NCBI GenBank assembly: GCA_009914755.4
Contig: CP068257.2
Span: forward strand, 10,816,001-10,880,000
Reading direction: 5' to 3'
Length of the DNA stretch: 64,000 nt
Source of the DNA: the human T2T-CHM13v2.0 reference genome, Homo sapiens
A model generated the notes under the pieces. That model made no database searches. It was not told the origin of the DNA and worked only from the letters and a program-made list of their open reading frames with translations. A program made the position numbers and the translations under genes. This document shows positions 1,294 to 62,635 of this stretch, piece by piece. How positions within the stretch are numbered: the first letter of the stretch is position 1; each line of letters starts with the position of its first letter.

Positions 1294-1586
1294 TTGGCTC
1301 AGGCCTGTAATCCCAGCACTTTTGGAGGCCAAGGCAAGAGGATCACAAGGTGAGGAGATCAAGACCATCCTGGCCAATACAGTGAAACGCTGTCACTATT
1401 AAAAATCCAAAAAATTAGCTAGGCATGGTGGCAGCTGGTGTAGTACCAGTGCGGTGTAGTCCCAGCTACCAGGGAGGCTGAGGTAGGACAATCGCTTGAA
1501 CACGTGAGGCACATGTTGCAGTGAGCAAAGATGGCGCCATTGTACTCCAGCCTGTGCAACAAAACAAGATGCTGTCTAAAAAAAAA
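1294..1586 (+). mobile_element. Alu SINE, plus orientation, lacking its first ~10 bp, CpG-decayed, with poly(A) tail at 1578-1586
   Basis: Seen: 'tggctcaggcctgtaatcccagcacttttggaggccaaggcaagaggatcacaaggtgaggagatcaagaccatcctggccaatacagtgaaac...aaaaattagctaggcatggtggc...gtcccagctaccagggaggctgaggtaggacaatcgcttgaac...gcagtgagcaaagatggcgccattgtactccagcctg...tctaaaaaaaaa'. This matches the dimeric Alu consensus (left monomer, A-rich linker, right monomer, A-tail). Most consensus CpGs are mutated to CA/TG. There is a short internal duplication 'ggtgtagtaccagtgcggtgtagtcccag'. Subfamily not assigned. Confidence 0.9.
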
Positions 1587-2132
1587 TTATATATGACATA
1601 TACCATATATTATATAATATGCTTTACATGTAATATATAATGTCATATATATTATATGTCATAATATGTAATATTTATCATGTCATATTATATATATATT
1701 ATATATGTTATGTAATATATATTATATAATACATATACATTATATATATTATAGATGAAAATATATAGTTATATATAATGTAATATAAAGTTATATATAA
1801 TAAAATGTATAACATGTCTAATATGCCATATGATATATAATATATATATTTTGTTACATATTTTAATTTATATATAATAAAATATATATAATTGTATAAT
1901 TATATGTAATATAAATAAATATATAATCATATAATTATATATATAATACAAATAATTATGTATATAATTATATCATTATGTAGTTATATGTATAATTATA
2001 TAAGTGTCATTATATATAATATAGTATATAACATATAAAATATATAATATATAATATATAATGTACAATATATGATACATATGTATATTTAATATATCAT
2101 AATATAATTTATATGTTAATATTTGATATTAT
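1587..2132. repeat. AT-rich low-complexity block (degenerate ATATATAAT/GTCATAT-type)
   Basis: Seen: immediately after the Alu A-tail the sequence returns to nearly pure A/T ('ttatatatgacatataccatatattatataatatgc...'). No 42-bp monomer anchor appears until 'tgctcccaaactatataacatatactgtacataaaatatcaaag' at about 2133. Confidence 0.8.
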
Positions 2133-5100
2133 GCTCCCAAACTATATAACATATACTGTACATAAAATATCAAAGTTTGCAAACTATTCCATACTGTACA
2201 TAAAATATCAAAGTACCGAATCTATATATTATATACTGTACATAAAATATCAAGGTACCGAAAATATATATTAGTGTACATAAAATATAAAAGTACACCA
2301 AATATATATTCTATGCTGTACATAAAATATCAAAGTACCCCAAATATATATTCTATATTGTAAATAAAATATCAAAGTACACAAACATGTATTATCTACT
2401 GTACATAACATATCAAAGTACCCAAACTATATATTATATACTGTACACAAAATATCAAATTACACCAAATATATATTCTATACTGTACAAAAAATATCAA
2501 AGTACACCAAATATATATTCTGTACTGTACATAAAATATCAGACTACCCAAACATATATACTGTACTTAATATATCAAAGTACCCAAACTGTATATTTCA
2601 TACTGTACATAAAATATCAAGGTACCCAAAGTATATATTATATACTGTTCATAAAATATCAAAGTACCCATAGTATATATTATAAACTGTACATAAATAT
2701 CAGAGTACCTAAGTTATATATTATATAGTGTAAAAAAAATTCAAAGTACCCAAACTATATATTATGTACTGTACATAATATATCAAAGTAACCAAACTAT
2801 ATATTATATACTATACATAAAATATCAAAGTACCCAAACTGTATATTATATGCTGCACATAAAATATCAAAGTACGCAAAGTATATATTATATACTGTAC
2901 ATAAAATATCAAAGTACCCAAACATTCATTATAAACTCTACATGAAATATCAGGGTAAGCAAACTATATATTATATACTGTACGTAAAATATCAAAGTAC
3001 CCAATGTATATATTATATACTGTATATAAAATATCAAAGTACCCAAAGTATGTGTTATACACTGTACATAAAATATCAAAGTACCCAAACATATATACTG
3101 TACATAAAATATCAAAGTACTCATAGAATATATTATAAACTGTATATAAAATATCAAAGTACCCAAACTATACGTTATATAATGTACATAAAATATCAAA
3201 GTACATCAAATATAGATTATATACTGTACATAAGATATCAAAGTGCCGAATCTATATATTATGTACTGTACATAAAATATCAAAGTACACAAATATATAC
3301 TGTACATAAAATATGAAAGTAACCATTTATAATAAACTGTACATAAAATATCAAAGTACTCAAACTACGTATTATATACAGTACATAAAATATCAAAGTA
3401 CCCAAACTGTATATTATATACTGTACATAAAACATCAAAGTACCCAAACTATATATTATATATTGTACATAAAATATCAAAGAACCCTAACTATATATTA
3501 TATACTGTACATAAAATAAGAAAGTGCATCAAATATATATTATATTCTGTACATAAAATATCAAAGTACACCAAATATATATTCTATACTGTAAATAAAA
3601 TATCAAAGTACCCCAAAAATTTATTATATACTCTACATAACTTATCAAAGTTTGCAAACTATATATTATATACTGTACATAAAATATCAAAGTACCCAAA
3701 GTATATATTGTATAGTGTACATCAAATATGAAAGTTCATCAAATACATATTTTATTCTGTACTTAAAATATCAAAGTACACCAAATATATATTCTATACT
3801 GTACTTAAAATATCAAAGTACACAAACAGGTATTATATACTGAACATAAAATATCAAAGTACCCATACAATATATTATAAACTGTACATAAAATATCAAA
3901 GTACCCAAACTATACATTATATAATGTACATAAAATATCAAAGTACATCAAATATATATTATATACTGTCCATAAAATATCAAAGTGCCGAATCTATATA
4001 TTATATACTGTACATAAAATATCAAAGTACACCAAATATATATTCTATACTGCACATAGAATATCAAAGTACACCAAATATATATTCTGTACTGTACATA
4101 AAATATCAACTACCCAAACATATATACTGTACATAATATATCAAAGTACCCAAACTATATATTTTATACTGTACATAAAATATCAAGGTACTCAAAGAAC
4201 ACATTATATACTGTACATAAAATATGAAATTATATCAAATATATATTATATTAGGTACATAAAATATGAAAGTACATCAAATATAGATTATATACTGTAC
4301 ATAAAATATCAAAGTAACGCAAATATATATTATATACTGTACATGAAATATCAAAGTACACAAACTATTATATACTGTATATAAAATATCAAAATACCCA
4401 CAGTATATATTATGTACTGTACATGACATATCAAAGTAACCAAACTATATATGATACACTGTACATAAAATATCAAGGTACCCAAAGTATATATTATATA
4501 CTGTTCATAAAATATCAAAGAAAGTACATATTATAAACTGTACATAAATATCAAAGTACCGAAGTTATATTATATATTGTAAAAAATATCAAAGTTCCCA
4601 CACTATATATTATGTACTGTACATAACATATCAAAGTAACCAAACTATATATTATATACTGTACATAAAATATCAAAGTACCCAAACTATATATTATATA
4701 CTGTAGATAAAATATCAAAGTACCCAAACTATATATTATATACTGTACATAAAATATCAAAGTACCCAAAGTAGATATTATATACTGTACATAATATATC
4801 AAAGTACCCAAACATTTATTATAAACTCTACATGAAATATCAGGGTAACAAAACTATATATTATATACTGTACATAAAATATCAAAGCACACAAAGTATA
4901 TATTATATACTGCACTTAAAATATCAAAGTACCCAATCTATGTGTTATATACTGTACATAAAATATCAACGTACCCAAACATATATTGTATACCGTAAAT
5001 AAAATTTCAAAGTACTCATATAATATATTATAAACTGTATATAAAATATCAAAGTCCCCAAACTACACGTTATATAAAGTACATAAAATATCAAAGTACA

Positions 5101-6000
5101 TCAAATATAGCTTATATACTGTACATAAAATATCAAAGTGCCGAATCTATATATTATATACTGTACAAAATATATCAAAGTACACAAACTATTATGTACT
5201 GTACATATAATATCAAAGTACACCAAATATATATTCTATACTGTACAAAAAATATCAAACTACACGAAATATATATTCTATACTGTACATAAAATATCAA
5301 AGTACACCAAATATATATTCTATACTGTACATAAAATATGAAAGTACCCAAACAGGTATTATATACTGTACATAAAATATCAAATTACACAAACTATACA
5401 TTATATACTGTACATAAAATATCAAAGTACCCAAACTATATATTATATACTGTACATAAAATATCAAAGTATCCAAACTATATATTATATACTGTACATA
5501 AACTATGAAAGTGCATCAAATATATATTATATTATGAACATAAAATATCAAAGTACCTCAAATAAATGTTATATACTCTACATAAAATATCAAAGTTCGC
5601 AAACTATATATTATATACTGTACATAAAGTATCAAAGTACCCAAAATATATATTATGTACTGTACATAAAATATGAAGGTACATCAAATATATATTATAT
5701 TCTGTACATAAAATATCAAAGTACACCAAAATATATACTGTACATAAAATATCAAATTACACCAAATATATATTATATACTGTACATAAAATATAAGATT
5801 ACCCAAAGTATGTATTATATACTGTACATAAAATATCAAAGTACCCAAAATATGTATAATATACTGTACATAAATTATGAAAGTACCCAAACTTTTATAA
5901 TAAACTGTACATAAAATAATAAAGTACTCAAACTATATATTCTATACAGTACATAAAATATCAAAGTACCCAAACTGTATATTATATATTGTACATAAAA
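2133..6000 (+). repeat. Array-edge zone of diverged HSat1 monomers without clear higher-order periodicity
   Basis: Seen: monomers here carry many private substitutions ('caaagtttgcaaactattccatactg', 'caaagtaccgaatctatatattatatactg', 'tcagactacccaaacatatatactg'). ORF-track peptides in 2.4-5.9 kb do not recur at fixed kb-scale offsets, unlike downstream. Boundaries are approximate. Confidence 0.45.
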
Positions 6001-9000
6001 TATCAAAGTATCCAAAATATATATTATGTACTGTACATAAAATATGAAGGTACATCAAATATATATTATATTCTGTACATAAAATATGAAAGTACTCCAA
6101 AATATATTATATACTGTACATAATATATTAAAGTCGCCCAAATATATATTATATACTGTACATAATAAAGGTCTCCCAAATATATATTATATACTGTACA
6201 TAAAATATGAAGTTACATCAAATATATTTTATATTCTGTACATAAAATCTGAAAGTACACCAAATATATATTATATGCTGCACATAAAATATCAAAGTAC
6301 CCAAAGAATGTATTATATACTGTACATAAAATATCAAAGTACCCAAAATATGTATAATATACTGTACATAAATTATGAAAGTACCCAAACATTTATAATA
6401 AACTGTACATAAAATAACAAACTACCCAAACTGCATATTATATACTGTACATAAAATATCAAAGTACCCAAATTGTATATTATATGGTACACATGAAATA
6501 TCAAAGTACCCAAATATATATTATATGCTGTACATAAAATATTAAAGTACACCAAAATATATACTGTACATAAAATATCAAATTACCCAAAGTATGTATT
6601 ACATTCTGTACATAAAATATCAAAGTACCCAAAATATGTATAATATACTGTACATAAATTATGAAAGTACCCAAACATTTGTAATAAACTGTACATAAAA
6701 TAACAAAGTACTCAAACTATATATTATATACTGTACATAAAATATCAAAGTACTCAAACTGTATATTATATACTGTACATAAAATACCAAAGTACCCAAA
6801 ATATATATTATATACTGTACATAAAATATGAAAGTACCCAAAGTATGTATTATATACTGTACATAAAATATCAAATTACACCAAATATATATTATATACT
6901 GTACATAAAATATCAAAGTACCCAAAATATGTATAATATACCGTACATAAATTATGAAAGTACACAAACATTTATAATAAACTGTACATAAAATAACAAA
7001 GTACTCAAACTACATATTGCATACTATACATAAAATATCAAAGTACCCAAACTGTATATTATATACTGTACACAAAATATCAAAGAACCAAAAGTAAATA
7101 TTATATAATGTACATAAATTATCAAAGTACCCAAAGTATATATTATATACTGTACATAAAATATGAAGGTACATCAAATATATATTATATTCTGTACATA
7201 AAATATCAAAGTACACCAAATATATATTATATACTGTACATAAAATATCAAAGTACCCAAAATATGTATAATATACTGTATATAAATTATGAAAGTACCC
7301 AAATATTTATAATAAACTGTACATAAAATAACAAAGTACTCAAACTGTATATTATATACTGTACATAAAATATCAAAGTACCCAAAATATTTATTATATA
7401 CTGTACATAAAATATCAAAGTACCCAAAGTATGTATTATATACTGTACATAAAATATCAAATTACACCAAATATATATTATATACTGTACATAAAATATC
7501 AAAGTACCGAAAGTACGTATTATATACTGTACATAAATTATGAAAGTACACATTTATAATAAACTGTACATAAAATAACAAAGTACACAAACTATATATT
7601 ATATACTGTACATAAAATATCAAAGTACCTAAACTGTATATTATATACTGTACATAAAATATCAAAGTACCGAAAATATATATGTACTGTACAAAAAATA
7701 TGAAGGTACATCAAATATATATTATATTCTGTACATAAAATATCAAAGTACATCAAAATACAGTATATACTGTACATAATATATTAAAGTGGCCCAAATA
7801 TATATTATATACTGTACATAATATATTAAGGTCTCCCAAATATATATTATATACTGTATATAAAATATGAAGGTACATAAAATATATATTATATTCTGTA
7901 CATAAAATCCGAAAGTACACCAAATATATGTTATATGCTGCACATAAAATATCAAAGTACCCAAAGTATGTATTATATACTGTACATAAAATATCAAAGT
8001 ACCCAAAATATGTATAATATACTGTACATAAATTATGAAAGTACCCAAACATTTATAATAAACTGTACATAAAATAACAACGTACTCAAACTATATATCC
8101 TATACAGTACATAAAATATCAAAGTACCCAAACTGTATATTATATACTGTACATAAAATATCAAATTACCCAAAATATATATTATGTACTGTACATAAAA
8201 TATGAAGGTACATCAAATATATATTATATTCTGTACATAAAATATCAAAGTACACCAAAATATATTATATACTGTACATAATATATTAAAGTCGCACATA
8301 TATATATTATATACTGTACATAATATATTAAGGTCGCCCAAATATATATTATATACTGTACATAAAATAAGAAGGTACATCAAATATATTTTATATTCTG
8401 TACATAAAATCTAAAAGTACACCAAATATGTTATATGCTGCACATAAAATATCAAAGTACCCAAAGTATGTATTATATACTGTACATAAAATACAAAAGT
8501 ACCCAAAATATGTATAATATTCTGTACATAAATTATGAAAGTACTGAAACATTTATAATAAACTGTACATAAAATAACAAACTAACCAAACTGTATATTA
8601 TACACTGTACATAAAATATCAAAGTACCCAAACTGTATATTATACGCTGTACATAAAATATCAAAGTACCCAAAGTATATATAATATACTGTACATAAAA
8701 TATCAAAGTACCCAAAGTATATATTATATACCGTACATGAAATATGAAGGTACATCAAATATATATATTATTCTGTACATAAAATATCACATTACACCAT
8801 ATATATATTATATACTGTACATAAAATATCAAAGTACCCAAAATATGTATAATATACTGTATATAAATTATGAAAGTACCCAAACATTTATACTAAACTG
8901 TACATAAAATAACAAAGTACTCAAACTATATATTATATACTGTACATAAAATATCAAAGTACTCCAACTGTATATTTTATACTGTACATAAAATATCAAA

Positions 9001-12000
9001 GTACCCAAAATATATATTATATACTGTATACAAAATATCAAAGTACCCAAAGTATGTATTATATACTGTACATAAAATATCAAATTACACCAAATATATA
9101 TTATATAGTGTACATAAAATATCAAAGTACCCGAAATATGTATAATATACTGTACATAAATTATGAAAGTACACAAACTTTTATAATAAACTGTACATAA
9201 AATAACAAAGTACCGAAACTATATATTATATACTGTACATAAAATATCCAAATACTCAAAATATATATTACATGCTGTACATAAAATATCAAAGTACCCA
9301 AAGTATGTATTATACACTGTACATAAAATATCAAAGTACCCAAAATATGTATAATATACTGTACATAAATTATGAAAGTACCCAAACATTTATAATAAAC
9401 TGTACATAAAATAACGTACTCAAACTATATATTCTATACAGTACATAAAATATCAAAGTACCCAAAATGTATATTATATACTGTACATAAAATATCAAAT
9501 TACCCAAAATATATATTATGTACTGTACATAAAATATGAAGGTACATCAAATATATATTATTTTCTGTACATAAAATATCAAAGTACACCAAAATATATT
9601 ATATACTGTACATAATATATTAAAGTCGCCTAAATATATATTATATACTGTACATAATATATTAAGGTTGCCGAAATATATATTATATACTGTAGATAAA
9701 ATAAGAAGGTACATCAAATATATTTTATATTCTGTACATAAAATCTGAAAGTACACCAAATATATGTTATATGCTGCACATAAAATATCAAAGTACCCAA
9801 AGTATGTATTATATACTGTACATAAAATACCAAAGTACCCAAAATATGTATAATATACTGTACATAAATTATGAAAGTACCCAAACATTTATAATAAACT
9901 GCACATAAAATAACAATGTACTCAAACTATATATTCTATACAGTACATAAAATATCAAAGTACCCAAACGTTATATTATATACTGTACATAAAATATCAA
10001 ATTACCCAAAATATATATTCTGTACTGTACATAAAATATGAAGGTACAACAAATATATATTATTTTCTGTACATAAAATATCAAAGTACACCAAAATATA
10101 TTATATACTGTACATAATATATTAAAGTCTCACAAATATATATTATATACTGTACATAATATATTAAGGTCGCCCAAATATATATTATATACTGTACATA
10201 AAATAAGAAGGTACATCAAATATATTTTCTGTACATAAAATCTGAAAGTACACCAAATATATGTTATATGCTGCACAGAAAATATCAAAGTACCCAAAGT
10301 ATGTATTATATACTGTACATAAAATACCAAAGTACCCAAAATATGTATAATATACTGTACATAAATTATGAAATTACCCAAACATTTATAATAAACTGTA
10401 CATAAAATAAACTACCCCAACTGTATATTATACACTGTACATAAAATATCAAAGTACCCAAACTGTATATTATACGCTGCACATAAAATATCAAAGTACC
10501 CAAAGTATATATAATATACTGTACATAAAATATCAAAGTACCCAAAGTATATATTATATACTGTACATAAAATATGAAGGTACATCAAATATATATATTA
10601 TTCTGTACATAAAATATCACATTACACCATATATATATTATATACTCTACATAAAATATCAAAGTACGCAAAATATATATAATATACTGTATGTAAATTA
10701 TGAAAGTACCCAAACATTTATAATAAACTGTACATAAAATAAAAAAGTACTCAAACTATATATTATATACTGTACATAAAATATCAAAGTATTCAAACTG
10801 TATATTATATACTGTACATAAAATATTAAAGTACCCAAAATATATATTATATTCTGTACATAAAATATCAAAGTACCCAAAGTATGTATTATATATTGTA
10901 CATAAAATATCAAACTATGCCAAATATATATTATATACTGTACATAAAATATCAAATTACCCAAAGTATGTATTTTATACTGTACATAAAATATCAAACT
11001 ACCCAAATTATGTATTATATACTGTACATAAAATATCAAATTACACCAAATATATATTATATACTGTACATAAAATATCAAAGTACCCAAAATATGTATA
11101 ATATAGTGTACATAAATTATGAAAGTACCCAAACATTTATAATAAACTGTTCATAAAATAACAAAGTACCCAAACTATATATTATATACTGTACATAAAA
11201 TATCAAAGTACCCAAACTGTATATTATATACTGTACACAAAATATCAAAGTACCGAAAATATATATTATGTACTATACATAAAATATGAGGGTATGTCAA
11301 ATATATATTATATTCTGTACATAAAATATCAAAGTACACCAAAATATATACTGTATATAATATATAAAAGTCACCCTACTATATACTGTACATAATATAA
11401 GGTCTCCCAACTATATATTATATACTGTACATAAAATATGAAGGTACATAAAATATATATTATATTCTGTACATAAAATCTGAAAGTACACCAAATATAT
11501 GTTATATGCCGCACATAAAATATCAAAGTACCCAAAGTATGTATTATATACTGTACATAAAATATCAAAGTACCCAATATATGTATAATATACTGTACAT
11601 AAATTATGAAAGTACCCAAGCATTTATAATAAACTGTACATAAAATAACAAACTACCCAAACTGTACATTGTATACTGTACATAAAATATCAAAGTACCC
11701 AAACTGTATATTATATGCTGCACATAAAATACCAAAGTATCCAAAATATATATTATATACTGTACATAAAATATCAAAGTACCCAAAGTATGTATTATAT
11801 ACTGTACATAAAATATCAAACTACGCCAAATATATATTATATACTGTATATAAAACATCAAATTACCCAAAGTATGTATTTTATACTGTACATAAAATAT
11901 CAAAGTACCCAAATTATGTATTATATACTGTACCTACAATATCAAATTACACCAAATATATATTATATACTGTACATAAAATATCAATGTACCCAAAATA

Positions 12001-15000
12001 TGTATAATATACTGTACATAAAATATGAAAGTACCCATTTATAATAATCTGTACATAAAATAATAAAGTACCCAAACTATATATTATATACTGTACATAA
12101 AATATCAAAGTACCCAAACTGTATATTATATACTGTACATAAAATATCAAAGTACCGAAAATATATATTATATTCTGTACATAAAATATCAAAGTACACC
12201 AAAATATATACTGTACATAATATATTAAAGTCACCCAAGTATATATTATATACTGTACATAATATATTAAGGTCTCCCAAATATATATTGTATACTGTAC
12301 ATAAAATATGAAGGTACATAAAATATATATTATATTCTGTACATAAAATCCGAAAGTACACCAAATATATGTTATATGCTGCACATAAAATATCAAAGTA
12401 CCCAAAGTATGTATTATATACTGTACATAAAATACCAAAGTACCCAAAATATGTATAATATACTGTACATAAATTATGAAAGTACCCAAACATTTATAAT
12501 AAACTGTACATAAAATAACAATGTACTCAAACTATATATTCTATACAGTACATAAAATATCAAAGTACCCAAACTTCATATTATATACTGTACATAAAAT
12601 ATCAAATTACCCAAAATATATATTATGTACTGTACATAAAATATGAAGGTACATCAAATATATATTATTTTCTGTACATAAAATATCAAAGTGCACCAAA
12701 GTATATTATATACTGTACATAATATATTAAAGTCGCACAAATATATATTATATACTGTACATAAAAGAAGAAGGTACATCAAATATATTTTATATTCTGT
12801 ACATAAAATCTGAAAGTACACCAAATATATGTTATATGCTGCACATAAAATATCAAAGTACCCAAAGTATGTATTATATACTGTACATAAAATACCAAAG
12901 TACCCAAAATATGTATAATATACTGTACATAAATTATGAAATTACCCAAACATTTATAATAAACTGTACATAAAATAACAAACTACCCCAACTGTATATT
13001 ATACACTGTATATAAAATATCAAAGTACCCAAACTGTATATTATACGCTGCACATAAAATATCAAAGTACCCAAAGTATATATAATATACTGTACATAAA
13101 ATATCAAAGTACCCAAGTATATATTATATACTGTACATAAAATATGAAGGTACATCAAATATATATATTATTCTGTACATAAAATATCACATTACACCAT
13201 ATATATATTATATACTGTACATAAAATATCAAAGTACCCAAAATATGTATAATATACTGTATATAAATTATGAAAGTACCCAAACCTTTATAATAAAGTG
13301 TACATAAAATAACAAAGTACTCAAACTATATATTATATACTGTACATAAAGTATCAAAGTACGCAAACTGTATATTATACACTGTACATAAAATATCAAA
13401 GTACCCAAAATATATATTATATACTGTATATAAAATATCAAAGTACCCAAAGTATGTATTATATACTGTACATAAAATATCAAACTATGCCAAATATATA
13501 TTATGTACTGTACATAAAACATCAAATTACCCAAAGTATGTATTTTATACTGTACATAAAATATCAAAGTACCCAAAGTATGTATTATATACTGTACATA
13601 AAATATCAAATTACAACAAATATATATTATATACTGTACATAAAATATCAAAGTACCCAAAATATGTATAATATACTGTACATAAATTATGAAAGTACCC
13701 AAACATTTATAATAAACTGTACATAAAATAACAACGTACTCAATCTATATATTCTATACAGTACAAAAAATATCAAAGTACCCAAACTGTATATTATATA
13801 CTGTACATAAAATATTAAATTACCCAAAATATATATTATGTACTGTACATAAAATATGAAGGTACATCAAATATATATTATATTCTGTACATAAAATATC
13901 AAAGTACACCAAAATATATTATATACTGTACATAATATATTAAACTCACGCAAATATATATTATATACTGTACATAATATATTAAGGTCGCCCAAATATA
14001 TATTATATACTGTACATAAAATATGAAGGAACATCAAATATATTTTTTATTCTGTACATAAAATCAGAAAGTACACCAAATATATGTTATATGCTGCACA
14101 TAAAATATCAAAGTATCCAAAGTATGTATTATATACTGTACATAAAATATCAAAGTACCCAAAATATGTATAATATACTGTACATAAATTATGAAAGTAC
14201 CCAAACATTTATAATAAACTATACATAAAATAACAAACTACCCAAACTGTATATTATACACTGTACATAAAATATCAAAGTACCCAAACTGTATATTATA
14301 TGCTGCACATAAATTATCAAAGTACCCAAAGTATATATAATATACTGTACATAAAATATCAAAGTACCCAAAGTATATATTATATACTGTACATAAAATA
14401 TGAAGGTACATCAAATATATATATTATTCTGTACATAAAATATCACAATACACCAAATATATATTATATACTGTACGTAAAATATCAAAGTACCCAAAAT
14501 ATGTATAATATACTGTATATAAATTGTGAAAGTACCCAAACCTTTATAATAAACTGTACATAAAATAACAAAGTACTCAAACTATATATTATATACTGTA
14601 TATAAAATATCAAAGTACTCAAACTGTATATTATATACTGTACATAAAATATCAAAGTACCCAAAATATATATTATATACTGTACATAAAATATAAAAGT
14701 ACCCAAAGTATGTATTTTATACTGTACATAAGATATCAAACTACGCCAAATATGTATTATATACTGTACATAAAATATCAAATTACCCAAAGTATGTATT
14801 TTATACTGTACATAAAATATCAAAGTACCCAAACTATGTATTATATACCGTATATAAAATATCAAATTACACCAAATATATATTATATACTGTACATAAA
14901 ATATCAAAGTACCCAAAATATGTATAATATACTGTACATAAATTATGAAAGTACCCAAATATTTATAATAAACTGTACATAAAATAACAAAGTACCCAAA

Positions 15001-15550
15001 CTATATATTACATACTTTACATAAAATATCAAAGTACCCAAATTGTATATTATATACTGTACATGAAATATCAAAGTACCGAAAATATATATTACGTACT
15101 GTGCATAAAATATGAAGGTACATCAAATATATATTATATTCTGTACATAAAATATCAAAGTACACCAAAATATATTATATACCGTACATAATATATTAAA
15201 GTCGCCCAAATATATATTATATACTGTACATAATATATTATGGTCTCCCAAATATATGTTATATACTGTACATAAAATATGAAGGTACATCAAATATATA
15301 TTATATTGTGTACATAAAATATCAAAGTACACATAATATATATTATATTCTGTACAGAAAATATCAAAGTACACCAAAACATATTATATACTGTACATAA
15401 TATATTAAATTCCTGCAAATATATATTATATACTGTACATAAAATATAAAAGTATTCAAAATATGTATAATATACTGTACATAAAATATGAAAGTACCCA
15501 AACATTTATAATAAACTGTACATAAAATAACAAAGTACTCAAACTATATA
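6000..15550 (+). repeat. HSat1 domain with short or irregular higher-order periodicities (about 0.6-2.6 kb), HOR family distinct from downstream
   Basis: Seen: the variant monomer pair 'atgaaagtacccaaacatttataataaactgtacataaaataacaaagtactcaaac' recurs every about 0.3-1.7 kb (for example about 6660, 7290, 8870, 9170, 10700, 11600, 13270, 14490). Minus-strand ORFs starting 'MCTFIIYV.../MGTFIIYV...' recur at 6967, 7553, 9176, 11132, 13702, 14958. ORF 10698..11132 is nearly identical to 13268..13702 (offset 2570). The 'aaaataacaaagtac' variant is rare after about 15.5 kb. Boundaries are approximate. Confidence 0.4.
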
Positions 15551-15774
15551 TTGTATACAGTACATAAAATATCAAAGTACCCAAACTGTATATTATATAC
15601 TGTACAGAAAATATCAAAGTATCCAAAATATATATTATGTACTTTACATAAAATATGGAGGTACATCAAATATATATTATATCCTGTACATAAAATATCA
15701 AAGTACCCAAAGTATGTATTATATACTGTACATAAAATATCAAAGTACCCAAAGTATATATTATATACTGTACA

Positions 15775-17300
15775 TAAAATATCAAAGTACCCAAATTATG
15801 TATTATATACTGTACGTAAAATATCAGAGTACACAAAATATGCATTATATACTGTACATAAAATATGAAAGTAACCAAACATTTATAATAAACTATACAT
15901 AAAATATCAAAGTACTCAAACTATATATCATATACTGTACATAAAATATCAAAGTACCCAAACTGTGTATTATTATATACTGTATATAAAATATCAAAGT
16001 ACCTGAAATATATATTGTATACTGTACATAAAATATCAAAGTACCAAAGTATCTATTATATACTGTACATAAAATATAAACTACCCCAAATATATATTAT
16101 ATGCTGTATATAAAATATCAAAGTACACAAATTATGTATTATATGCTGTACATAAAATATCAAGGTACCCAAAATATATATTGTAAACTGTAGATAAAAT
16201 ATCAAAGTACCCAAAATATATATTATATATTGTACATAAAATATGAAGGCACATCCAATATATATTATATTCTGTACATAAAATATCAAAGTACACCAAA
16301 TGTATATTATATACTGTACATAAAATATCAAAGTACCCAAAGTGTATATTATATACTGTACATAAAATATGAAGTTTCAACAAATATATTTTATATTCTG
16401 TACATAAAATATCAAAGTACCCAAATTATGTATTATATACTGTACGTAAAATATCAGAGTACCCAAAATATGCATTATATACTGTACATAAAATATGAAA
16501 GTAACAAAAAATTTATAATAAACTGTACATAAAATATCAAAGTACTCAAACTATATATCATATACTGTACATAAAATATCAAAGTACACAAACTGTGTAT
16601 TATTATATACTGTATATAAAATATCAAAGTACCTGAAATATATATTGTATACTGTACATAAAATATCAAAGTACCCAAAGTATCTATTATATACTGTACA
16701 TAAAATATAAACTACCCCAAATATATATTATATGCTGTATATAAAATATCAAAGTACACAAAATATGTATTATATGCTGTACATAAAATATCAAGGTACC
16801 CAAAATATATATTTTAAACTGTAGATAAAATATCAAAGTACCCAAAATATATATTATATATTGTACATAAAATATGAAGGCACATCCAATATATATTATA
16901 TTCTGTACATAAAATATCAAAGTACACCAAATGTATATTATATACTGTACATAAAATATCAAAGTACCCAAAGTGTATATTATATACTGTACATAAAATA
17001 TGAAGTTTCATCAAATATATTTTATATTCTGTACATAAAATATCAAAGTACCCAAATTATGTATTATATACTGTACGTAAAATATCAGAGTACCCAAAAT
17101 ATGCATTATATACTGTACATAAAATATGAAAGTAACAAAACATTTATAATAAACTGTACATAAAATATCAAAGTACTCAAACTATATATCATATACTGTA
17201 CATAAAATATCAAAGTACCCAAACTGTGTATTATTATATACTGTATATAAAATATCAAAGTACCTGAAATATATATTGTTTACTGTACATAAAATATCAA
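15775..17300 (+). repeat. Local tandem duplication of a 630-631-bp (about 15-monomer) block, about 2.4 copies
   Basis: Seen: '...ccaaattatgtattatatactgtacgtaaaatatcagagtac...atgaaagtaac(c/a)aaa...tttataataaact.tacataaaatatcaaagtactcaaactatatatcatatactg...tgtgtattattatatactgtatataaaatatcaaagtacctgaaatatatattgt...' starts at about 15775, 16406 and 17037. ORFs 16056..16340 and 16687..16971 (94 aa) match, as do 16230..16532 and 16861..17163 (100 aa), at offset 631. The third copy diverges after about 17300. Confidence 0.7.
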
Positions 17301-17388
17301 AGTACCCAAAATATATACTATATACTGTACATAAAATATGAAGGTACATCAAATATATATTATATCCTGTACATAAAATATCAAAGTA

Positions 17389-20300
17389 CACCTATTTGAT
17401 ATTGTGTACTGTACATAATATATTAAATCACCCAAATATATATTGTATACTGTATATAAAATATGAAGGTACTTCTAATATATATTATATGTTGCACATA
17501 AAATATCAAAGTACCCAAAGTATGCATTACATACTGTACATAAAATATCAAAGTACACAAATTATATATTATATAATGTACATAAAATATGAAGGTTCAT
17601 CAAATATATTTTATATTCTGTACATAATATATCAAAGTACATCAAATATATATTATATACGGTACATAAAATATCAAAGTACCCAAAATATGTATAATTT
17701 ACTGTACATAAAATATGAAAGTAACCAAACATTTATAATAAACTGTACATAAAATATCAAAGTACTCAATCTACATATTATATACAGTATATAAAATATC
17801 AAAGTACACAAACTGTATATTATATACTATACATAATATATCAAAGTACCCAGAATATATAGCATACTGTACATAAAATATCAAAGTACCCAAAATATAT
17901 ATTGTATTCTGTACACAAAATATGAAGGTACATCAAAGATATATTATATTCTGTACATAAAATGTCAAAGTACACCAAATATATATTAAATGCTGTACAT
18001 AATATATTAAAGTTGCCCATATATACATTATATACTGTACATAAAGTATGCACGTACATCAAATATATAGTATATGCTGCACATAAAATATCAAAGTACC
18101 CAAAGTATGTATTATACACTGTACATAAAATATCAAAGTACCAAAACTATATATTACATACTGTAAATAAAATATGAAGGTACCTCAAATATACATTATA
18201 TTCTGTACATAAAATATCAAAGTACACCAAGTATATACTATATAATCTGCATAAAATATTAAATTACCCAAAATATGTATTGTATTGTGTACATAAAATA
18301 TGAAAGTAACCAAACATTTATAATAAACTCTACATAAAATATCAAAGTACTCAAACTGTATATTATATACTGTACATAAAGTATCAAAGTACCCAAACTG
18401 TGTAGTATATACTGTACATAAAATATCAAGGTACCCAAGATATATATTGTAAACTGTAGATAAAATGTCAAAGTACCCAAAATATATACTATATACTGTA
18501 CATAAAATATGAAGGCACATCCAATATATATTATATTCTGTACATAAAATATCAAAGTACACCAAATGTATATTATACACTGTACATAAATTATAAAAGT
18601 ACCCCAAATATATATTATATACTCTACATAAAATATCAAAGTACCCAAAATATATATTATATACTGTACATAAAATATCAAAGTACCCATAGTATGTATT
18701 ATATCCTGTACATAAAATATGAAGGTACATCAAATATATATTCTATTCTGCACATAAAATATCATATTACAACAAATATATATTGTATACTGTATATAAA
18801 ATATGAAGGTACTTCAAATATATATTATATGCTTCACATAAAATATCAAAGTACCCAAAGTATGCATTATATACTGTACATAAAATATCAAAGTACCCAA
18901 AGTGTATATTATATACTGTACATAAAATATGAAGGTTCATCAAATATATTTTATATTCTGCACATAATATATCAAAGTACATCAAATATATATTATATAC
19001 TGTACATAAAATATGAAAGTATCAAAAATATGTATTATATACTGTACATAAAATATGAAAGTAACCAAATATTTATAATAAACTCTACATAAAATATCAA
19101 AGTACTCAAACTACATATTATATACAGTATATAAAATATCAAAGTACCCAAACTGTATATTATATACTGTACATACTATATCAAAGTACCCGAATATATA
19201 GCATACTGTACATAAAATATCAAAGTACCCAAAATATATATTGTATACTGTACATGAAATATGATGGTACATCAAAGATATATTCTGTACATAAAATATC
19301 AAAGTACACCAAATATATATTATATGCTGTACATAATATATTAAAGTTGACCAAATATATATTACATACTGTACATAAAATATGAAGGTACATCAAATAT
19401 ATATTATATGCTGCACATAAAATATCAAAGTACCCAAAGTATGTGTTATATACTGTAAATAAAATATCAAAGTACCCAAAGTATATATTATATACTGTAC
19501 ATAAAATATAAAATACCCCAAATATATATTTTATGCTATACATAAAATATCAAAGTACACAAAATATGTATTATATACTGAGCATAAAATATCAAAGGAC
19601 CCAAAATATATATTATATACTGTACATAAAATATCAAAATACCCAAAATATATATTATATACTGTACATAAAATACCAAAGTACCCAAAGTATATATTAT
19701 ATACCGTACAAAAAATATCAAAGTAGCCAAAATATGTATTATACACTGTACATAATATATGAAAGTACCCAAACATTTATAATAAACTGTACATAAAATA
19801 TCAATGTACTCAAACTATATATTATGTGCGGTACATAAGATATCAAAGTACCCATACTATATAGTATGTACTGTACTTAAAATATCAAAATACCCAAAAT
19901 ATATATTATATACGTTACATAAACTATCAAATACACAAAGTATGTATTATATACTGTACATAAAATAGCAAAGTTCCCAAAATATGTATTATATACTGTA
20001 CATAAAATATGAAAGTACCCAACCATTTATAATAAACTCTACATAAAATACCAAAGTACCCAAACTGTGTATTATATACTGTCCATAAATTATCAAAGTA
20101 CCCAAAATATATATTGAAAACTGTACATAAAATATCAAAGTAGCCAAAATGTATATTGTATACTGTACATAAAATATAAACGTACCCCAAATATATATTA
20201 TATACTGTACATAAAATATCAAAGTACCCATAATACATATTATATACTGTACATAAAATATCAAAGGACCCAAAATAAACATTATATACTGTACATAAAA

Positions 20301-20690
20301 TATCCAAATACTCAAAATATATATTACATACTGTACATAAAATATCAAAGTACCCAAATTATGTATTATATACTGTACGTAAAATATCAGAGTACCCAAA
20401 ATATGCATTGTATACTGTACATAAAATATGAAAGTAGCAAAACATTTATAATAAACTGTACATAAAATATCAAAGTACTAAAACTATATATCATGTACTG
20501 TACATAAAATATCAAAGTACCCAAACTGTGTATTATTATATACTGTCCATAAAATATCAAAGTACCTAAAATATTTATTGCATACTGTACATAAAATATC
20601 AAAGTACCCAAAATATATACTATATACTGTACATAAAATATGAAGGTACATCAAATATATATTATATCCTGTACATAAAATATCAAAGTA
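17389..20690 (+). repeat. One canonical HOR copy (3302 bp) delimited by the 'cacctatt...ttaaatcaccc' landmark
   Basis: Landmark at 17389 and again at 20691. ORF 18694..19092 recurs nearly identically at 21996..22394 (offset 3302). Confidence 0.55.
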
Positions 20691-23600
20691 CACCTATTAT
20701 ATATTGTGTACTGTACATAATATATTAAATCACCCAAATATATATTGTATACTGTATATAAAATATGAAGTTACTTCAAATATATATTATATGCCGCACA
20801 TAAAATATCAAAGTACCCATAGTATGCATTACATACTGTACATAAAATATCAAAGTACACAAATTATATATTATATAATGTACATAAAATATGAAGGTTC
20901 ATAAAATATACTTTATATTCTGTACATAATATATCAAAGTACATCAAATATATATTATATACGGTACATAAAATATCAAAGTACCCAAAATATGTATTAT
21001 TTACTGTACATATAATATGAAAGTAACCAAACATTTATAATAAACTGTACATGAAATATCAAAGTACTCAATCTACATATTATATACAGTATATAAAATA
21101 TCAAAGTACACAAACTGTATATTATATACTGTACATAATATATCAAAGTACCCAGAATATAGAGCATACTGTACATAAAATATCAAAGTACCCAAAATGT
21201 ATATTGTATGCTGTACATAAAATATGAAGGTACATCAAAGATATATTATATTCTGTACATAAAATATCAAAGTACACCAAATATATATTATGTGCTGTAC
21301 ATAATATATTAAAGTTACCCATGTATATATTTTATACTGTACATAAAATATGAAGGTACATCAAATATATAGTATATGCTGCACATAAAATATCAAAGTA
21401 CCCAAAGTATGTATTATATACTGTACATAAAATATCAAAGTACCAAAAGTATATATTACTTACTGTAAATAAAATATGAAAGTACCTCAAATATATATTA
21501 TATTCTGTACATAAAATATCAAAGTAGACCAACTATATACTATATACTCTACATAAAATATTAAATTACCCGACATATGTATTGTATTGTGTACATAAAA
21601 TATGAAAGTAACCAAACATTTATAATAAACTGTACATAAAATATCAAAGTACTCAAACTGTATATTATATACTGTACATAAAGTATCAAACTACCCAAAC
21701 TGTGTAGTATATACTGTACATAAAATATCAAGGTACCCAAAATGTATACTGTAAACTGTAGATAAAATATCAAAGCACCCAAAATATATATTATATACTG
21801 TACATAAAATATGAAGGCACATCCAATATATATTATATTCTGTACATAAAATATCAAAGTACACCAAATGTATATTATATACTATACATAAAATACAAAA
21901 GTACCCCAAATATATATTATCTACTCTACATAAAATATCAAAGTACCCAAAATATATATTATATACTGTACATAAAATATCAAAGTACCCATAGTATGTA
22001 TTATATCCTGTACATAAAATATGAAGGTACATCAAATATATATTCTATTCTGCACATAAAATATCATATTACACCAAATATATATTGTATACTGTATATA
22101 AAATATGAAGGTACTTCAAATATATATTATATGCTGCACATAAAATATCAAAGTACCCAAAGTATGCATTATATACTGTACATAAAATATCAAAGTACCC
22201 AAAGTGTATATTATACACTGGACATAAAATATGAAGGTTCATCAAATACATTTTATATTCTGCACATAATATATCAAAGTACATCAAATATATATTATAT
22301 ACTGTACATAAAATATCAAAGTACCAAAAATATGTATTATATACTGTACATAAAATATGAAAGTAACCAAATATTTATAATAAACTCTACATAAAATATC
22401 AAAGTACTCAAACTACATATTATATACAGTATATAAAATATCAAAGTACCCAAACTGTATATTATATACTGTACATACTATATCAAAGTACCCAAATATA
22501 TAGCATACTGTACATAAAATATCAAAGTACCCATAATATATATTGTATACTGTACATGAAATATGAGGGTACATCAAAGATATATTATATTCTGTACATA
22601 AAATATCAAAGTACACCAAATATATATGATATGCTGTACATAATATATTAAAGTCGAACAAATATATATTACATACTGTATATAAAATATGAAGGTACAT
22701 CAAATATATATTATATGCTGCACATAAAATATCAAAGTACCCAAAGTATGTATTATATACTGTACATAAAATACCAAAGTACCCAAAGTATATATTATAT
22801 ACCGTACAAAAAATATCAAAGTAGCCAAAATATGTATTGTACACTGTACATAATATATGAAAGTACCCAAACATTTATAATAAACTGTACATAAAATATC
22901 AATGTACTCAAACTATATATTATGTGCGGTACATAAGATATCAAAGTACCCATACTATATAGTATGTACTGTACTTAAAATGTCAAAATACCCAAAATAT
23001 ATATTATATACGTTACATAAACTATCAAATACACAAAGTATGTATTATATACTGTACATAAAATAGCAAAGTTCCCAAAATATGTATTATATACTGTACA
23101 TAAAATATGAAAGTACCCAACCATTTATAATAAACTCTACATAAAATACCAAAGTACCCAAACTGTGTATTATATACTGTCCATAAATTATCAAAGTACC
23201 CAAAATATATATTGAAAACTGTACATAAAATATCAAAGTAGCCAAAATGTATATTGTATACTGTACATAAAATATAAACATACCCCAAATATATATTATA
23301 TACTGTACATAAAACATCAAAGTACCCATAATACATATTATATACTGTACATAAAATATCAAAGGACCCAAAATAAACATTATATACTGTACATAAAATA
23401 TCCAAATACTCAAAATATATATTACATACTGTACATAAAATATCAAAGTACCCAAATTATGTATTATATACTGTACGTAAAATATCAGAGTACCCAAAAT
23501 ATGCATTGTATACTGTACATAAAATATGAAAGTAGCAAAACATTTATAATAAACCGTACATAAAATATCAAAGTACTAAAACTATATATCATATACTGTA

Positions 23601-23788
23601 CATAAAATATCAAAGTACCCAAACTGTGTATTATTATATACTGTCCATAAAATATCAAAGTACCTAAAATATATATTGCATACTGTACATAAAATATCAA
23701 AGTACCCAAAATATATACTATATACTGTACATAAAATATGAAGGTACATCAAATATATATTATATCCTGTACATAAAATATCAAAGTA
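20691..23788 (+). repeat. HOR copy, 3098-bp length variant (about 5 monomers shorter than canonical)
   Basis: Same landmark at 20691 and 23789. ORFs 19927..20307 and 23025..23405 are identical (offset 3098). ORFs 20387..20611 and 23485..23709 are near-identical. Confidence 0.55.
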
Positions 23789-26700
23789 CACCTATTATAT
23801 ATTGTGTACTGTACATAATATATTAAATCACCCAAATATATATTGTATACTGTATATAAAATATGAAGGTACTTCAAATATATATTATATGCTGCACATA
23901 AAATATCAAAGTACCCAAAGTATGCATTACATACTGTACATAAAATATCAAAGTACACAAATTATATATTATATAATGTACATAAAATATGAAGGTTCAT
24001 AAAATATACTTTATATTCTGTACATAATATATCAAAGTACATCAAATATATATTATATACGGTACATAAAATATCAAAGTACCCAAAATATGTATTATTT
24101 ACTGTACATAAAATATGAAAGTAACCAAACATTTATAATAAACTGTACATAAAATATCAAAGTACTCAATCTACATATTATATACAGTATATAAAATATC
24201 AAAGTACACAAACTGTATATTATATACTGTACATAATATATCAAAGTACCCAGAATATATAGCATACTGTACATAAAATATCAAATTACCCAAAATATAT
24301 ATTGTATACTGTACATAAAATATAAAGGTACATCAAAGATATATTATATTCTGTACATAAAATATCAAATTACACCAAATATATATTATATGCTGTACCT
24401 AATATATTAAAGTTGCCCATATATACATTATATACTGTACATAAAATATGAACGTACATCAAATATATAGTATATGCTGCACATAAAATATCAAAGTACC
24501 CAAAGTATGTATTATACACTGTACATAAAATATCAAAGTACCAAAAGTATATATTACATACTGTAAATAAAATATGAAGGTACCTCAAATATATATTAAA
24601 TTCTGTACATAAAATATCAAAGTCCACCAAGTATATACTATATACTCTGCAGAAAATATTAAATTACCCAAAATATGTATTGTATTGTGTACATAAAATA
24701 TGAAAGTAACCAAACATTTATAATAAACTGTACATAAAGTATCAAAGTACTCAAACTACATATTATATACAGTATATAAAATGTCAAAGTACCCAAACTG
24801 TATATTATATACTGTACATAATATATCAAAGTACCCAAATATATAGCATACTGTACATAAAATATCAAAGTACCCAAAATATATATTGTATACTGTACAT
24901 AAAATATGAAGGTACATCAAAGATATATTATATTCTGTACATAACATATCAAAGTACACCAAATATATATTATATGCTGTACATAATATATTAAAGTCGA
25001 CCAAATATATATTACATACTGTACATAAAATATGAAGGTACATCAAATATATATTATATGCTGCACATAAAATATCAAAGTACCCAAAGTATGTATTATA
25101 TACTGTACATAAAATATCAAAGTACCCAAAGTATATATTATATACTGTACATAAAATATAAAATACCCCAAATATATATTATATGCTGTACATAAAATAT
25201 CAAAGTACACAAAATATGTATTATGTAGTGTACATACAATATCAAAGGACCCAAAATATATATTATATACTGTACATAAAATATCAAAATACCCAAAATA
25301 TATATTATATACTGTACATAAAATACCAAAGTACCCAAAGTATATATTATATACCATAGAAAAAATATCAAAGTAGCCAAAATATGTATTATACACTGTA
25401 CATAATATATGAAAGTACCCAAACATTTATAATAAACTGTACATAAAATATCAATGTACTCAAACTATGTATTATGTGCGGTACATAACATATCAAAGTA
25501 CCCATACTATATAGTATATACTGTACATAAAATATCAAAGGTCCCAAAATAAACATTATATACTGTACATAAAATATCCAAATACCCAAAATATATATTA
25601 CATACTGTACATAAAATATCAAAGTACCCAAATTATGTATTATATACTGTACGTAAAATATCAGAGTACCCAAAATATGCATTATATACTGTACATAAAA
25701 TATGAAAGTAACAAAACATTTATAATAAACTGTACATAAAATATCAAAGTACTAAAACTATATATCATATACTGTACATAAAATATCAAAGTACCCAAAC
25801 TGTGTATTATTATATACTGTCCATAAAATATCAAAGTACCTGAAATATGTATTGCATACTGTACATAAAATATCAAAGTACCCAAAATATATACTATATA
25901 CTGTACATAAAATATGAAGGTACATCAAATATATATTATATCCTGTACATAAAATATCAAAGTACACCTATTATATATTGTGTACTGTACATAATATATT
26001 AAATCACCCAAATATATATTGTATACTGTATATAAAATATGAAGGTACTTCAAATATATATTATATGCTGCACATAAAATATCAAAGTACCCAAAGTATG
26101 CATTACATACTGTACATAAAATATCAAAGTACACAAAGTGTATATTATATACTGTACATAAAATATGTAGGTTCATCAAATATATTTTATATTCTGTACA
26201 TAATATATCAAAGTACATCAAATATATATTATATATGGTACATAAAATATCAAATTACCCAAAATATGTATTATTTACTGTGCATAAAATATGAAAGTAA
26301 CCAAACATTTATAATAAACTGTACATAAAATATCAAAGTACTCAATCTACGTATTATATACAGTATATAAAATGTCAAAGTACACAAACTGTATATTATA
26401 TACTGTACATAATATATCAAAGTACCCAGAATATATAGCATACTGTACATAAAATATCAAATTAGCCAAAATATATATTGTATACTGTACATAAAATATG
26501 AAGGTACATCAAAGATATATTATATTCTGTACATAAAATATCAAAGTACACCAAATATATATTATATGCTGTACATAATATATTAAAGTTGCCCATGTAT
26601 ACATTTTATACTGTACATAAAATATGAAGGTACATCAAATATATAGTATATGCTGCACATAAAATATCAAAGTACCCAAAGTATGTAATATATACTGTAC

Positions 26701-62620: not shown

Positions 62621-62635
62621 AATATCAAAGTACTC

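What the first reader, a model, noticed from the sequence alone, without database searches (positions are those of the whole stretch)
6000..17400. Two differently organised satellite domains abut near 15.5 kb
Seen: upstream of about 15.5 kb the array uses a related but distinct monomer set (for example 'aaaataacaaagtactcaaac', 'ttaaagtcgcccaaatatatattatatactgtacataatatattaaggtc') with short, irregular higher-order spacings of about 0.6-2.6 kb. Downstream it switches to the ~3.3-kb HOR. The switch coincides with the 631-bp tandem duplication at 15775-17300. Abutting HOR families within one array mark layered expansions of different ages. Exact coordinates are approximate.
Basis: seen in the sequence. 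Interest (0 to 1): 0.5.

Follow-up and report, generated by a model that had tools for sequence, protein, structure and literature searches.

The report
Two repeat families abut in HSat1A
At the edge of a human 42-bp AT-rich satellite (HSat1A) array, an older block with short irregular higher-order repeats meets a younger block built on a 3.3-kb repeat unit; the boundary is real and sharp, but it is the ordinary layered structure already described for human satellite arrays.

Summary
The window holds one uninterrupted, single-strand array of 42-bp human satellite 1A monomers (2136-64000). It falls into three blocks that share a monomer consensus but not a higher-order repeat.

- **Block I (2136 to about 5100):** the best 252-bp match elsewhere is about 89% identical.
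- **Block II (about 5600 to 15663):** about 95%, with spacings of 502, 1256, 1334 and about 1830 bp.
- **Block III (15664/15790 to 64000):** about 99%. It is a 79-monomer repeat of 3302-3307 bp with many in-register length variants.

No 252-bp window of II matches any window of III at 7% divergence or less (0 of 272,787 pairs). The switch lies within 15664-15789, in three near-consensus monomers common to both families, and it keeps the 42-bp phase. A 631-bp, 15-monomer unit repeated 2.4 times (15790-17304) follows at once.

Identity rises in steps from the array edge inward, which fits successive local amplifications ("layered expansion"). The 3.3-kb unit is only the modal length (4 of 15 units), and an older outer block was not mentioned.

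This is a known kind of structure in a known satellite, so interest is low.

The parts
1..2135 (.). Non-satellite flank. It holds AT-rich low-complexity sequence (1 to about 730 and about 1590-2135), unique sequence (about 730-1290) and an Alu element with a poly-A tail (about 1290-1590).
   Evidence: Read directly. Rfam gives weak hits to the Alu-derived mir-1268 and to SRP RNA at 1416-1580. An independent contig, L101, matches window 1316-4232 at 98.6% overall and 99.7% over the Alu.
2136..5100 (+). Block I: the outermost and most diverged HSat1A layer. It keeps only an old period of about 1.86-1.89 kb at about 88-92% identity.
   Evidence: Best 252-bp match is 88.9% at the median, and no partner is 5% divergent or less. 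Collinearity within the block exceeds the shuffled null, 88.9 against 85.6.
5101..5597 (+). Transition zone between blocks I and II. Its monomers have no close relative in either block.
   Evidence: Best three-monomer matches differ at 8-16 of 126 positions from both blocks. Independent contig L069 spans window 4156-5874 at 98.6%.
5598..15663 (+). Block II: the intermediate layer. It has short modular higher-order repeats (a 12-monomer 502-bp module and a 30-monomer 1256-bp module) in irregular arrangements.
   Evidence: Best 252-bp match is 95.2% at the median, and every partner at 7% divergence or less lies inside this block. Spacing peaks are 502, 1256, 1334 and 1830 bp.
15664..15789 (+). 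Junction interval: three 42-bp near-consensus monomers that occur in both families. The switch from II to III happens somewhere inside it, in phase.
   Evidence: These monomers differ at 0-1 positions from members of both blocks. The monomer at 15622 is II-specific (2 differences against 5) and the one at 15790 is III-specific (0 against 3). Monomer lengths across the interval are 42 bp.
15790..17304 (+). Local tandem repeat of a 631-bp, 15-monomer variant unit, 2.4 copies, at the outer edge of block III.
   Evidence: Three-way alignment, with copies 1 and 2 about 98.6% identical. The unit combines block III monomer types 3-7, 10, 12-15 and 17 with four local types: 8, 9, 11 and 16.
17305..64000 (+). 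Block III proper: the young, homogeneous layer built on a 79-monomer repeat of 3302-3307 bp, with in-register deletion and duplication variants. It runs off the end of the window.
   Evidence: Best 252-bp match is 98.8% at the median. Long self-alignments reach 93-97% over up to 5.5 kb. Independent contigs L118, L034 and L001 match at 97.0-97.6% over their full lengths.
25627..28933 (+). One canonical copy of the 79-monomer (3307-bp) repeat of block III. It contains an internal duplication of about 16 monomers spaced 32 monomers apart.
   Evidence: Order of monomer types: types 24-38 recur as 24, 25, 52, 27-36, 56, 38.
47805..49028 (+). A second local tandem amplification inside block III: a 532-bp unit in about 2.3 copies (starts at 47805, 48337 and 48869, the third incomplete).
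   Evidence: Runs of monomer types. A spacing of 532 bp is the top peak in 40-50 kb.

Best explanation
The window is the edge of a human satellite 1A (HSat1A, formerly 'SAR' or satellite I) array. The array grew by successive local amplifications.

1. An old set of monomers survives next to the flank as block I.
2. A later amplification of short multi-monomer modules produced block II.
3. The most recent amplification, of a 79-monomer (3.3-kb) unit, produced block III. That block has since been reshuffled by in-register unequal exchange or slippage between similar monomers, which gives the many unit-length variants and the local 631-bp and 532-bp tandem repeats.

The II/III boundary is the outer limit of the youngest expansion. 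It sits in three monomers that both families share, as expected if the join or the spread of homogenisation used homologous, in-phase exchange.

**Shown:** the blocks, their identities, the position and phase of the junction, and the repeat units.
**Inferred:** the order of events in time and the recombination mechanism.

Nothing suggests a function specific to the boundary. It is a by-product of satellite turnover.
For: **Identity of the satellite**
- The period is 42 bp.
- The published 17-bp A unit, ACATAAAATAT[G/C]AAAGT (PMC9032817), occurs 516 times exactly, all on the + strand, against 0 expected by chance.
- G+C is 21-23%.

**Discrete families**
- No II x III window pair is 7% divergent or less, out of 272,787.
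- Monomer-type clusters are almost disjoint.
- Full-unit alignment of II to the block III repeat gives 83%, which is background.

**Age order from edge to interior**
- Median best identities are 88.9, 95.2 and 98.8%.
- Values are flat within each block.

**Seamless junction**
- It is in phase and lies within shared monomers.

**Unequal exchange in register**
- Every unit variant differs by a whole number of monomers, and jumps occur between repeated types.
- Two local tandem amplifications are present.

**Agreement with the literature**
- Higher-order repeats in HSat1, and a periodicity that varies along an array, are reported for the complete human genome, together with the layered expansion model (10.1101/2021.07.12.452052).
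- A 2.97-kb satellite I higher-order repeat has been known since 1993 (PMC8125562).
Against: - Divergence measures time since the last homogenisation, not age as such.
- The other flank of block III is outside the window, so the symmetry that the layered model predicts is untested.
- No independent sequence covers the II/III junction. A junction-specific 29-mer has no hit in three collections, and no fetched contig carries the region.
- Within-type monomer divergence differs little between II (3.8%) and III (3.0%) when measured inside clusters. The clustering threshold caps that measure.
Confidence: 0.75

Rival explanations
1. Edge effect only. There was one amplification history, and the outer part looks different because unequal exchange and gene conversion homogenise array ends less efficiently. 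Blocks I and II would then be decayed copies of the same repeat as block III.
For: Identity falls towards the array edge. II and III keep a weak collinear kinship above a shuffled null, 88.9 against 87.7 +/- 0.23, with closest windows 7.1% apart.
Against: - The change is a step, not a gradient, and identity is flat within each block.
- Block II has its own periodicities (502 and 1256 bp) at 95% identity, and the 3302-bp spacing is absent from it.
- The 79-monomer order of block III does not align to II above the background of 81-83%.
Confidence: 0.12
2. Seeding from another array. Block III did not arise from block II in place. It was brought in from another HSat1A array, for example on another acrocentric chromosome, by ectopic exchange, and then expanded against the resident block II.
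For: - Block III-type sequence is abundant in unrelated human-derived contigs: at least 50 contigs are made almost wholly of III-specific 32-mers, at 97-97.6% identity. It may therefore form large arrays elsewhere.
- Block II-like contigs exist only as paralogues of about 85-89% identity.
- Inter-array seeding is documented for alpha satellite.
Against: - The window cannot show where else the block III family lies.
- The junction is in phase and inside monomers shared by both families, which fits in-place origin equally well.
- This is a variant of the layered model rather than a true alternative.
Confidence: 0.25
3. Assembly artefact. Two different HSat1A arrays, or distant parts of one array, were joined wrongly at about 15.7 kb.
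For: No independent contig spans 15.3-17.3 kb, and the junction 29-mer is absent from the three collections scanned. The join falls in generic monomers, where an assembler could switch paths.
Against: - The 42-bp phase, strand and base composition are continuous across the join.
- The first kilobases of block III are a distinctive local variant, the 631-bp unit with four private monomer types, rather than generic block III sequence.
- The two outer boundaries of the same locus are reproduced in independent contigs.
- Short metagenome contigs would rarely capture a single-copy junction in any case.
Confidence: 0.06

Closest known systems
Human satellite 1A (HSat1A; 'SAR' in RepeatMasker/Dfam; classical satellite I)
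   Same: It has a 42-bp monomer made of a 17-bp A unit and a 25-bp B unit. The A unit matches the published sequence exactly, and the B unit (ACCCAAAATATATATTATATACTGT) is nearly identical by eye to published B1 (not scored). G+C is about 22%, all copies lie on one strand, and the array sits next to an Alu-bearing flank.
   Different: The 378-bp 9-mer periodicity reported as prevalent in the chromosome 13 array is absent; the fraction at 378 bp is 0.003 or less. The organisation here is a 79-monomer unit plus 12- and 30-monomer modules.
pTRI-6 satellite I subfamily with a 2.97-kb higher-order repeat (Kalitsis et al. 1993, as cited in PMC8125562)
   Same: It is a kilobase-scale higher-order repeat of 42-bp satellite I monomers. 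Block III contains variant units of 3012-3013 and 3098 bp, close to that size.
   Different: The canonical unit here is 3302-3307 bp. The pTRI-6 sequence (L01057.1) was not available, so identity with that subfamily is untested.
Layered expansion of alpha-satellite arrays (Shepelev et al. 2009; Altemose et al., 10.1101/2021.07.12.452052)
   Same: Adjacent blocks hold distinct repeat families, homogeneity increases from flank to core, and local 'hyper-local' tandem amplifications occur.
   Different: The satellite is different (42-bp HSat1A, not 171-bp alpha). No kinetochore role is implied. Only one flank is visible, so symmetry is untested. The layers here are only 3-10 kb thick.

Membership tests
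HSat1A / classical satellite I | Tandem 42-bp monomer | tested here: met
   Tandem Repeats Finder gives period 42 and 1480.8 copies over 2136-64000. In the decomposition, 1214 of 1483 segments are exactly 42 bp.
HSat1A / classical satellite I | Alternating A (17 bp) and B (25 bp) units with the published sequences | tested here: met
   The published A unit, ACATAAAATAT[G/C]AAAGT (PMC9032817), has 516 exact hits against 0 expected. The consensus B unit, ACCCAAAATATATATTATATACTGT, matches published B1 apart from the degenerate positions; I compared these by eye.
HSat1A / classical satellite I | Among the most AT-rich sequence of the genome (about 23% G+C) | tested here: met
   G+C is 0.21-0.23 in every 2-kb window of the array. 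Cloned HSat1A is reported at 23%.
HSat1A / classical satellite I | Human pericentromeric or acrocentric short-arm location (chromosomes 3, 4, 13, 14, 15, 21, 22) | not testable with these tools
   No human genome was available to search. The Alu flank and near-identical contigs from human-associated metagenomes show human origin only. The non-alpha-satellite flank argues against the chromosome 3 and 4 arrays embedded in alpha satellite; that is an inference.
Chromosome 13-type HSat1A organisation | Predominant 378-bp (9-monomer) nested repeat | tested here: not met
   The fraction of 30-mers recurring at 378 +/- 8 bp is 0.000-0.003 in all blocks.
Higher-order repeat (HOR) array | Neighbouring monomers diverge by about 20%, while copies of the multi-monomer unit are far more alike | tested here: met
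   Mean pairwise monomer difference is 8 of 42 positions, or 19%. Unit copies are 93-97% identical over 2-5.5 kb, and 98.8% at the best 252-bp window.
Layered expansion model | Discrete adjacent blocks of distinct repeat families | tested here: met
   No cross-block window pair is 7% divergent or less, and the type clusters are disjoint.
Layered expansion model | Homogeneity increases stepwise from flank towards core | tested here: met
   Median identities run 88.9, 95.2 and 98.8%, and are flat within blocks.
Layered expansion model | Mirror-symmetric older layers on the opposite flank | not testable with these tools
   The window ends inside block III at 64000.
Layered expansion model | Independent dating, by embedded transposon ages or presence in other apes | not testable with these tools
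   There are no insertions in the array (the longest monomer is 45 bp), and no ape genomes were available.

The most novel reading that the evidence does not exclude
The 79-monomer (3.3-kb) unit and the 12/30-monomer modules may be HSat1A subfamilies that nobody has catalogued individually. The II/III junction may then be a base-resolved example of how a new satellite layer is seeded: an in-phase exchange inside three monomers common to the old and new families, followed at once by a private 15-monomer tandem amplification. If the same junction anatomy recurs at other HSat1A array edges, it would give a sequence-level rule for how layers form in non-alpha satellites. Locus L066 also shows a block III-like stretch abutting a different HSat1A block.
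Probability: 0.25. Interest if true: 0.35.

Novelty: already known. Interest (0 to 1): 0.15.

Why it matters
This is a textbook-quality small example of satellite turnover: three layers within 16 kb of an array edge and a junction resolved to 126 bp. It could serve as a marker set for telling HSat1A sub-arrays or haplotypes apart, or as a test case for repeat-annotation tools. It reveals no new kind of element and changes nothing about how satellites are thought to evolve.

Tried and rejected
1. **Dot plot with 28-base words.** It was saturated because generic monomers recur everywhere. Words of 60 and 100 bases resolved the blocks.
2. **Sensitive BLAST between blocks.** It timed out on the 48-kb block. 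With lenient scoring on smaller pieces, everything aligns at 81-83% at any monomer offset. That is useful only as the background level.
3. **Independent copies of the junction.**
   - The 29-mer GTACTTTACATAAAATATGGAGGTACATC has no hit in metagenome, prokaryote-genome or viral collections.
   - None of the 134 HSat1A-bearing contigs carries the 15.3-17.3 kb region.
   - L082 looked like a candidate but is only 84.7% identical there.
4. **BLAST of all fetched contigs against the window.** It timed out after three queries and was replaced by 32-mer mapping.
5. **Coding potential.** Open frames reach 182 codons in 2-20 kb. These are expected because 42 bp equals 14 codons in phase. They were not pursued as genes.
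6. **Rfam.** It returned only weak, sub-threshold hits in the flank at 1416-1580 (mir-1268 and SRP RNA, which I read as the Alu).
7. **Chromosome assignment and the pTRI-6 comparison.** Neither was possible, because no human reference and no L01057.1 sequence were available.
8. **Absolute dating.** I did not attempt it. Mutation rates in these regions are uncertain and reported to be unusually high.
Full report
**What the sequence is.** Bases 1-2135 are non-satellite: AT-rich low-complexity sequence, a unique stretch, and an Alu element with its poly-A tail at about 1290-1590. Rfam gives only weak hits there, to the Alu-derived mir-1268 and to SRP RNA.

From 2136 to the end of the window, Tandem Repeats Finder calls a single 42-bp array of 1481 copies. 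Its consensus is CCCAAAATATATATTATATACTGTACATAAAATATCAAAGTA. G+C is 21-23% throughout, with constant strand skews.

The published description of human satellite I gives alternating units: A (17 bp), ACATAAAATAT[G/C]AAAGT, and B (25 bp) (PMC9032817). The A unit occurs 516 times exactly, all on the + strand, where shuffles give none. The consensus B unit matches published B1 apart from its degenerate positions.

This is therefore HSat1A, the 42-bp satellite formerly called SAR (10.1101/2021.07.12.452052), seen at one edge of an array. No monomer is longer than 45 bp, so there are no insertions and no inversions.

**Checking the observation.** I decomposed the array into 1482 monomers by wrap-around alignment to the consensus. 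I then compared them singly and in runs of 3, 6, 12 and 24.

All parts of the array share the same consensus monomer and the same mean monomer-to-monomer difference, about 8 of 42 positions. The longer-range organisation falls into three blocks.

| Block | Coordinates | Median identity of a 252-bp window to its best partner elsewhere |
|---|---|---|
| I | 2136 to about 5100 | 88.9% |
| II | about 5600 to 15663 | 95.2% |
| III | 15664/15790 to 64000 | 98.8% |

The best cross-block values are 85-89%. That is close to what shuffling the order of the target monomers gives.

Counting window pairs at 7% divergence or less gives 355 of 26,796 within II, 7,636 of 656,085 within III, and 0 of 272,787 between II and III. 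Word dot plots at 60 and 100 bases show the same two blocks. Context clustering gives almost disjoint sets of monomer types.

The 3302-bp spacing is absent from 5.7-15.7 kb and is the commonest next-occurrence spacing downstream. Upstream spacings are 502, 1256, 1334, about 1830, 2570 and 2605 bp.

The second has no exact copy but has 7 copies with up to 3 mismatches, again only in block II.

**The junction.**
- Monomer 15622-15663 is still II-specific: 2 differences from the nearest block II monomer against 5 from the nearest block III monomer.
- Monomer 15790-15831 is III-specific: 0 against 3.
- The three monomers between them (15664-15789) are near-consensus types present in both families at 0-1 differences.

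The switch therefore lies within 126 bp, in phase, with no partial monomer and no foreign sequence.

Immediately inside block III is a 15-monomer, 631-bp unit. The copies are 15790-16419, 16420-17050 and a partial third to 17304, and copies 1 and 2 are about 98.6% identical. The unit combines standard block III monomer types with four private ones. It sits just inside the younger block rather than across the switch.

**Anatomy of the two blocks.**

Block III has a clear canonical unit of 79 monomers (3302-3307 bp, for example 25627-28933). That unit carries an internal duplication of about 16 monomers spaced 32 monomers apart.

Using one five-monomer landmark, successive units measure 3302, 3098, 2176, 3307, 4343, 3012, 2092, 3392, 2306, 6749, 2681, 3307, 2386, 3306 and 1378 bp. 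Only four of the fifteen are canonical. Every variant differs by a whole number of monomers, with jumps between repeated or similar types.

Larger duplications exist as well. An 8576-bp offset equal to three units aligns at 96.4% over 5.4 kb. A 532-bp unit is repeated about 2.3 times at 47805-49028.

Block II is built from shorter modules, 12 monomers (502 bp) and 30 monomers (1256 bp), in irregular combinations.

Block II does not align to the 79-monomer unit above the 81-83% obtained at any offset. So it is not a decayed copy of the same repeat. A weak kinship remains: collinearity slightly above the null, and closest windows 7.1% apart, for example II 7130 against III 27472. 'Related but distinct' is a fair description.

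**An extra layer.** Block I (2136 to about 5100) has no partner at 5% divergence or less. It keeps only a faint period of about 1.86-1.89 kb. A 0.5-kb zone at about 5100-5600 has no close relative in any block. Identity thus rises in two steps from the flank inward and is flat inside each block.

**Independent sequences.** A consensus 29-mer retrieved at least 120 metagenome contigs and 14 contigs filed under bacterial genomes. All of them are evidently human contamination.

- At least fifty consist almost entirely of block III-specific 32-mers. Three were checked in full and match at 97.0-97.6%. The block III family is therefore abundant in other human samples.
- L101 reproduces window 1316-4232 at 98.6% overall, and 99.7% over the Alu.
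- L069 reproduces window 4156-5874 at 98.6%. So the flank-to-I and I-to-II transitions are real in another individual.
- Block II-like contigs are only about 85-89% identical, so they are paralogues.
- Nothing covers the II/III junction. That junction rests on this assembly alone.

**Explanation.** The simplest reading is successive local amplification, with the newest family in the interior and older families displaced to the edge. In-register unequal exchange or slippage then reshapes the young block.

The blocks, the steps in identity, the phase and the position of the junction are shown. The temporal order and the recombination mechanism are inferred.

| Rival explanation | Main argument against | Confidence |
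|---|---|---|
| Pure edge effect of weaker homogenisation | The step-like profile and the separate periodicities of block II | 0.12 |
| Seeding of block III from another array | Not excluded; it is a variant of the same model | 0.25 |
| Assembly misjoin | Continuity of phase and strand, and the private 631-bp variant at the edge of block III; it needs reads to exclude | 0.06 |

**Comparison with what is known.**
- Higher-order repeats in HSat1, and a periodicity that changes along an array 'hyper-locally', were reported with the complete human genome. So was genome-wide evidence for layered expansion in alpha satellite.
- A 2.97-kb satellite I higher-order repeat (pTRI-6) dates from 1993.
- The 378-bp 9-mer reported as prevalent in the chromosome 13 array is not present here. 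The flank is not alpha satellite, unlike the arrays on chromosomes 3 and 4.
- The chromosome cannot be assigned with these tools.

**Verdict.** It is an ordinary instance of a known phenomenon in a known satellite. The particular 79-monomer unit and the junction anatomy may not have been described individually, which gives it modest value as a worked example.

Noticed in passing
window 2136-5100: There is a third, outermost HSat1A layer. Its best internal matches are only about 89%, with a faint period of about 1.86-1.89 kb (for example 2791 against 4681 at 92.5%). The finding does not mention it.
   Followed up: yes
window 5101-5597: About 0.5 kb of monomers between blocks I and II has no close relative anywhere in the window: 8-16 differences per 126 bp to the best match.
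   Followed up: partly
window 16601-30564: A multi-unit super-repeat is present. An 8576-bp offset (three consecutive units of 3302 + 3098 + 2176 bp) aligns 16601-21988 with 25177-30564 at 96.4%. Some 252-bp windows are 100% identical at this offset (for example 19768 and 28349).
   Followed up: partly
window 47805-49028: A 532-bp unit is repeated in tandem about 2.3 times inside block III. It is a second very local amplification, like the 631-bp one.
   Followed up: partly
window 1290-1590: An Alu element with a poly-A tail lies 0.55 kb outside the array. Rfam gives a sub-threshold hit to the Alu-derived mir-1268 at 1416-1482.
   Followed up: partly
L121-L134 (for example NZ_JABGCH010000203.1 Modestobacter marinus; JAHWGP010000528.1 Streptomyces sp. 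DH5; NZ_NMUL01000140.1 Amycolatopsis vastitatis): Fourteen contigs deposited as bacterial genome sequence contain human HSat1A. Several are block III-type at 87-89% shared 32-mers. This is human contamination of prokaryote assemblies.
   Followed up: partly
L074 1-8916, L107 1-8656, L075 1-6649, L012 1-10427: These metagenome contigs join block III-type HSat1A (22% G+C) directly to sequence of 40-60% G+C with no satellite. They are probably chimeric assemblies of human and microbial DNA.
   Followed up: no
L066 1-13234 (BNJS01002714.1): This is another locus with layered HSat1A. Block III-specific 32-mers fill about 0-3.7 kb. Generic HSat1A lacking III-specific words fills about 4-7.5 kb. AT-rich sequence with almost no shared words follows. 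It looks like a second example of abutting blocks at an array edge.
   Followed up: partly
window 2000-20000, both strands: Open reading frames of up to 182 codons run through the satellite. Since 42 bp is 14 codons, a frame without a stop codon persists across monomers. These are mechanical and are not evidence of genes.
   Followed up: yes
window 15957, 16587, 17218 and homologous positions in each block III unit: Monomers of unusual length (45, 41 and 39 bp) are fixed at particular positions of the block III repeat. Of the 198 monomers that are not 42 bp, 139 share their length with their type. They are handy diagnostic markers of the family.
   Followed up: partly
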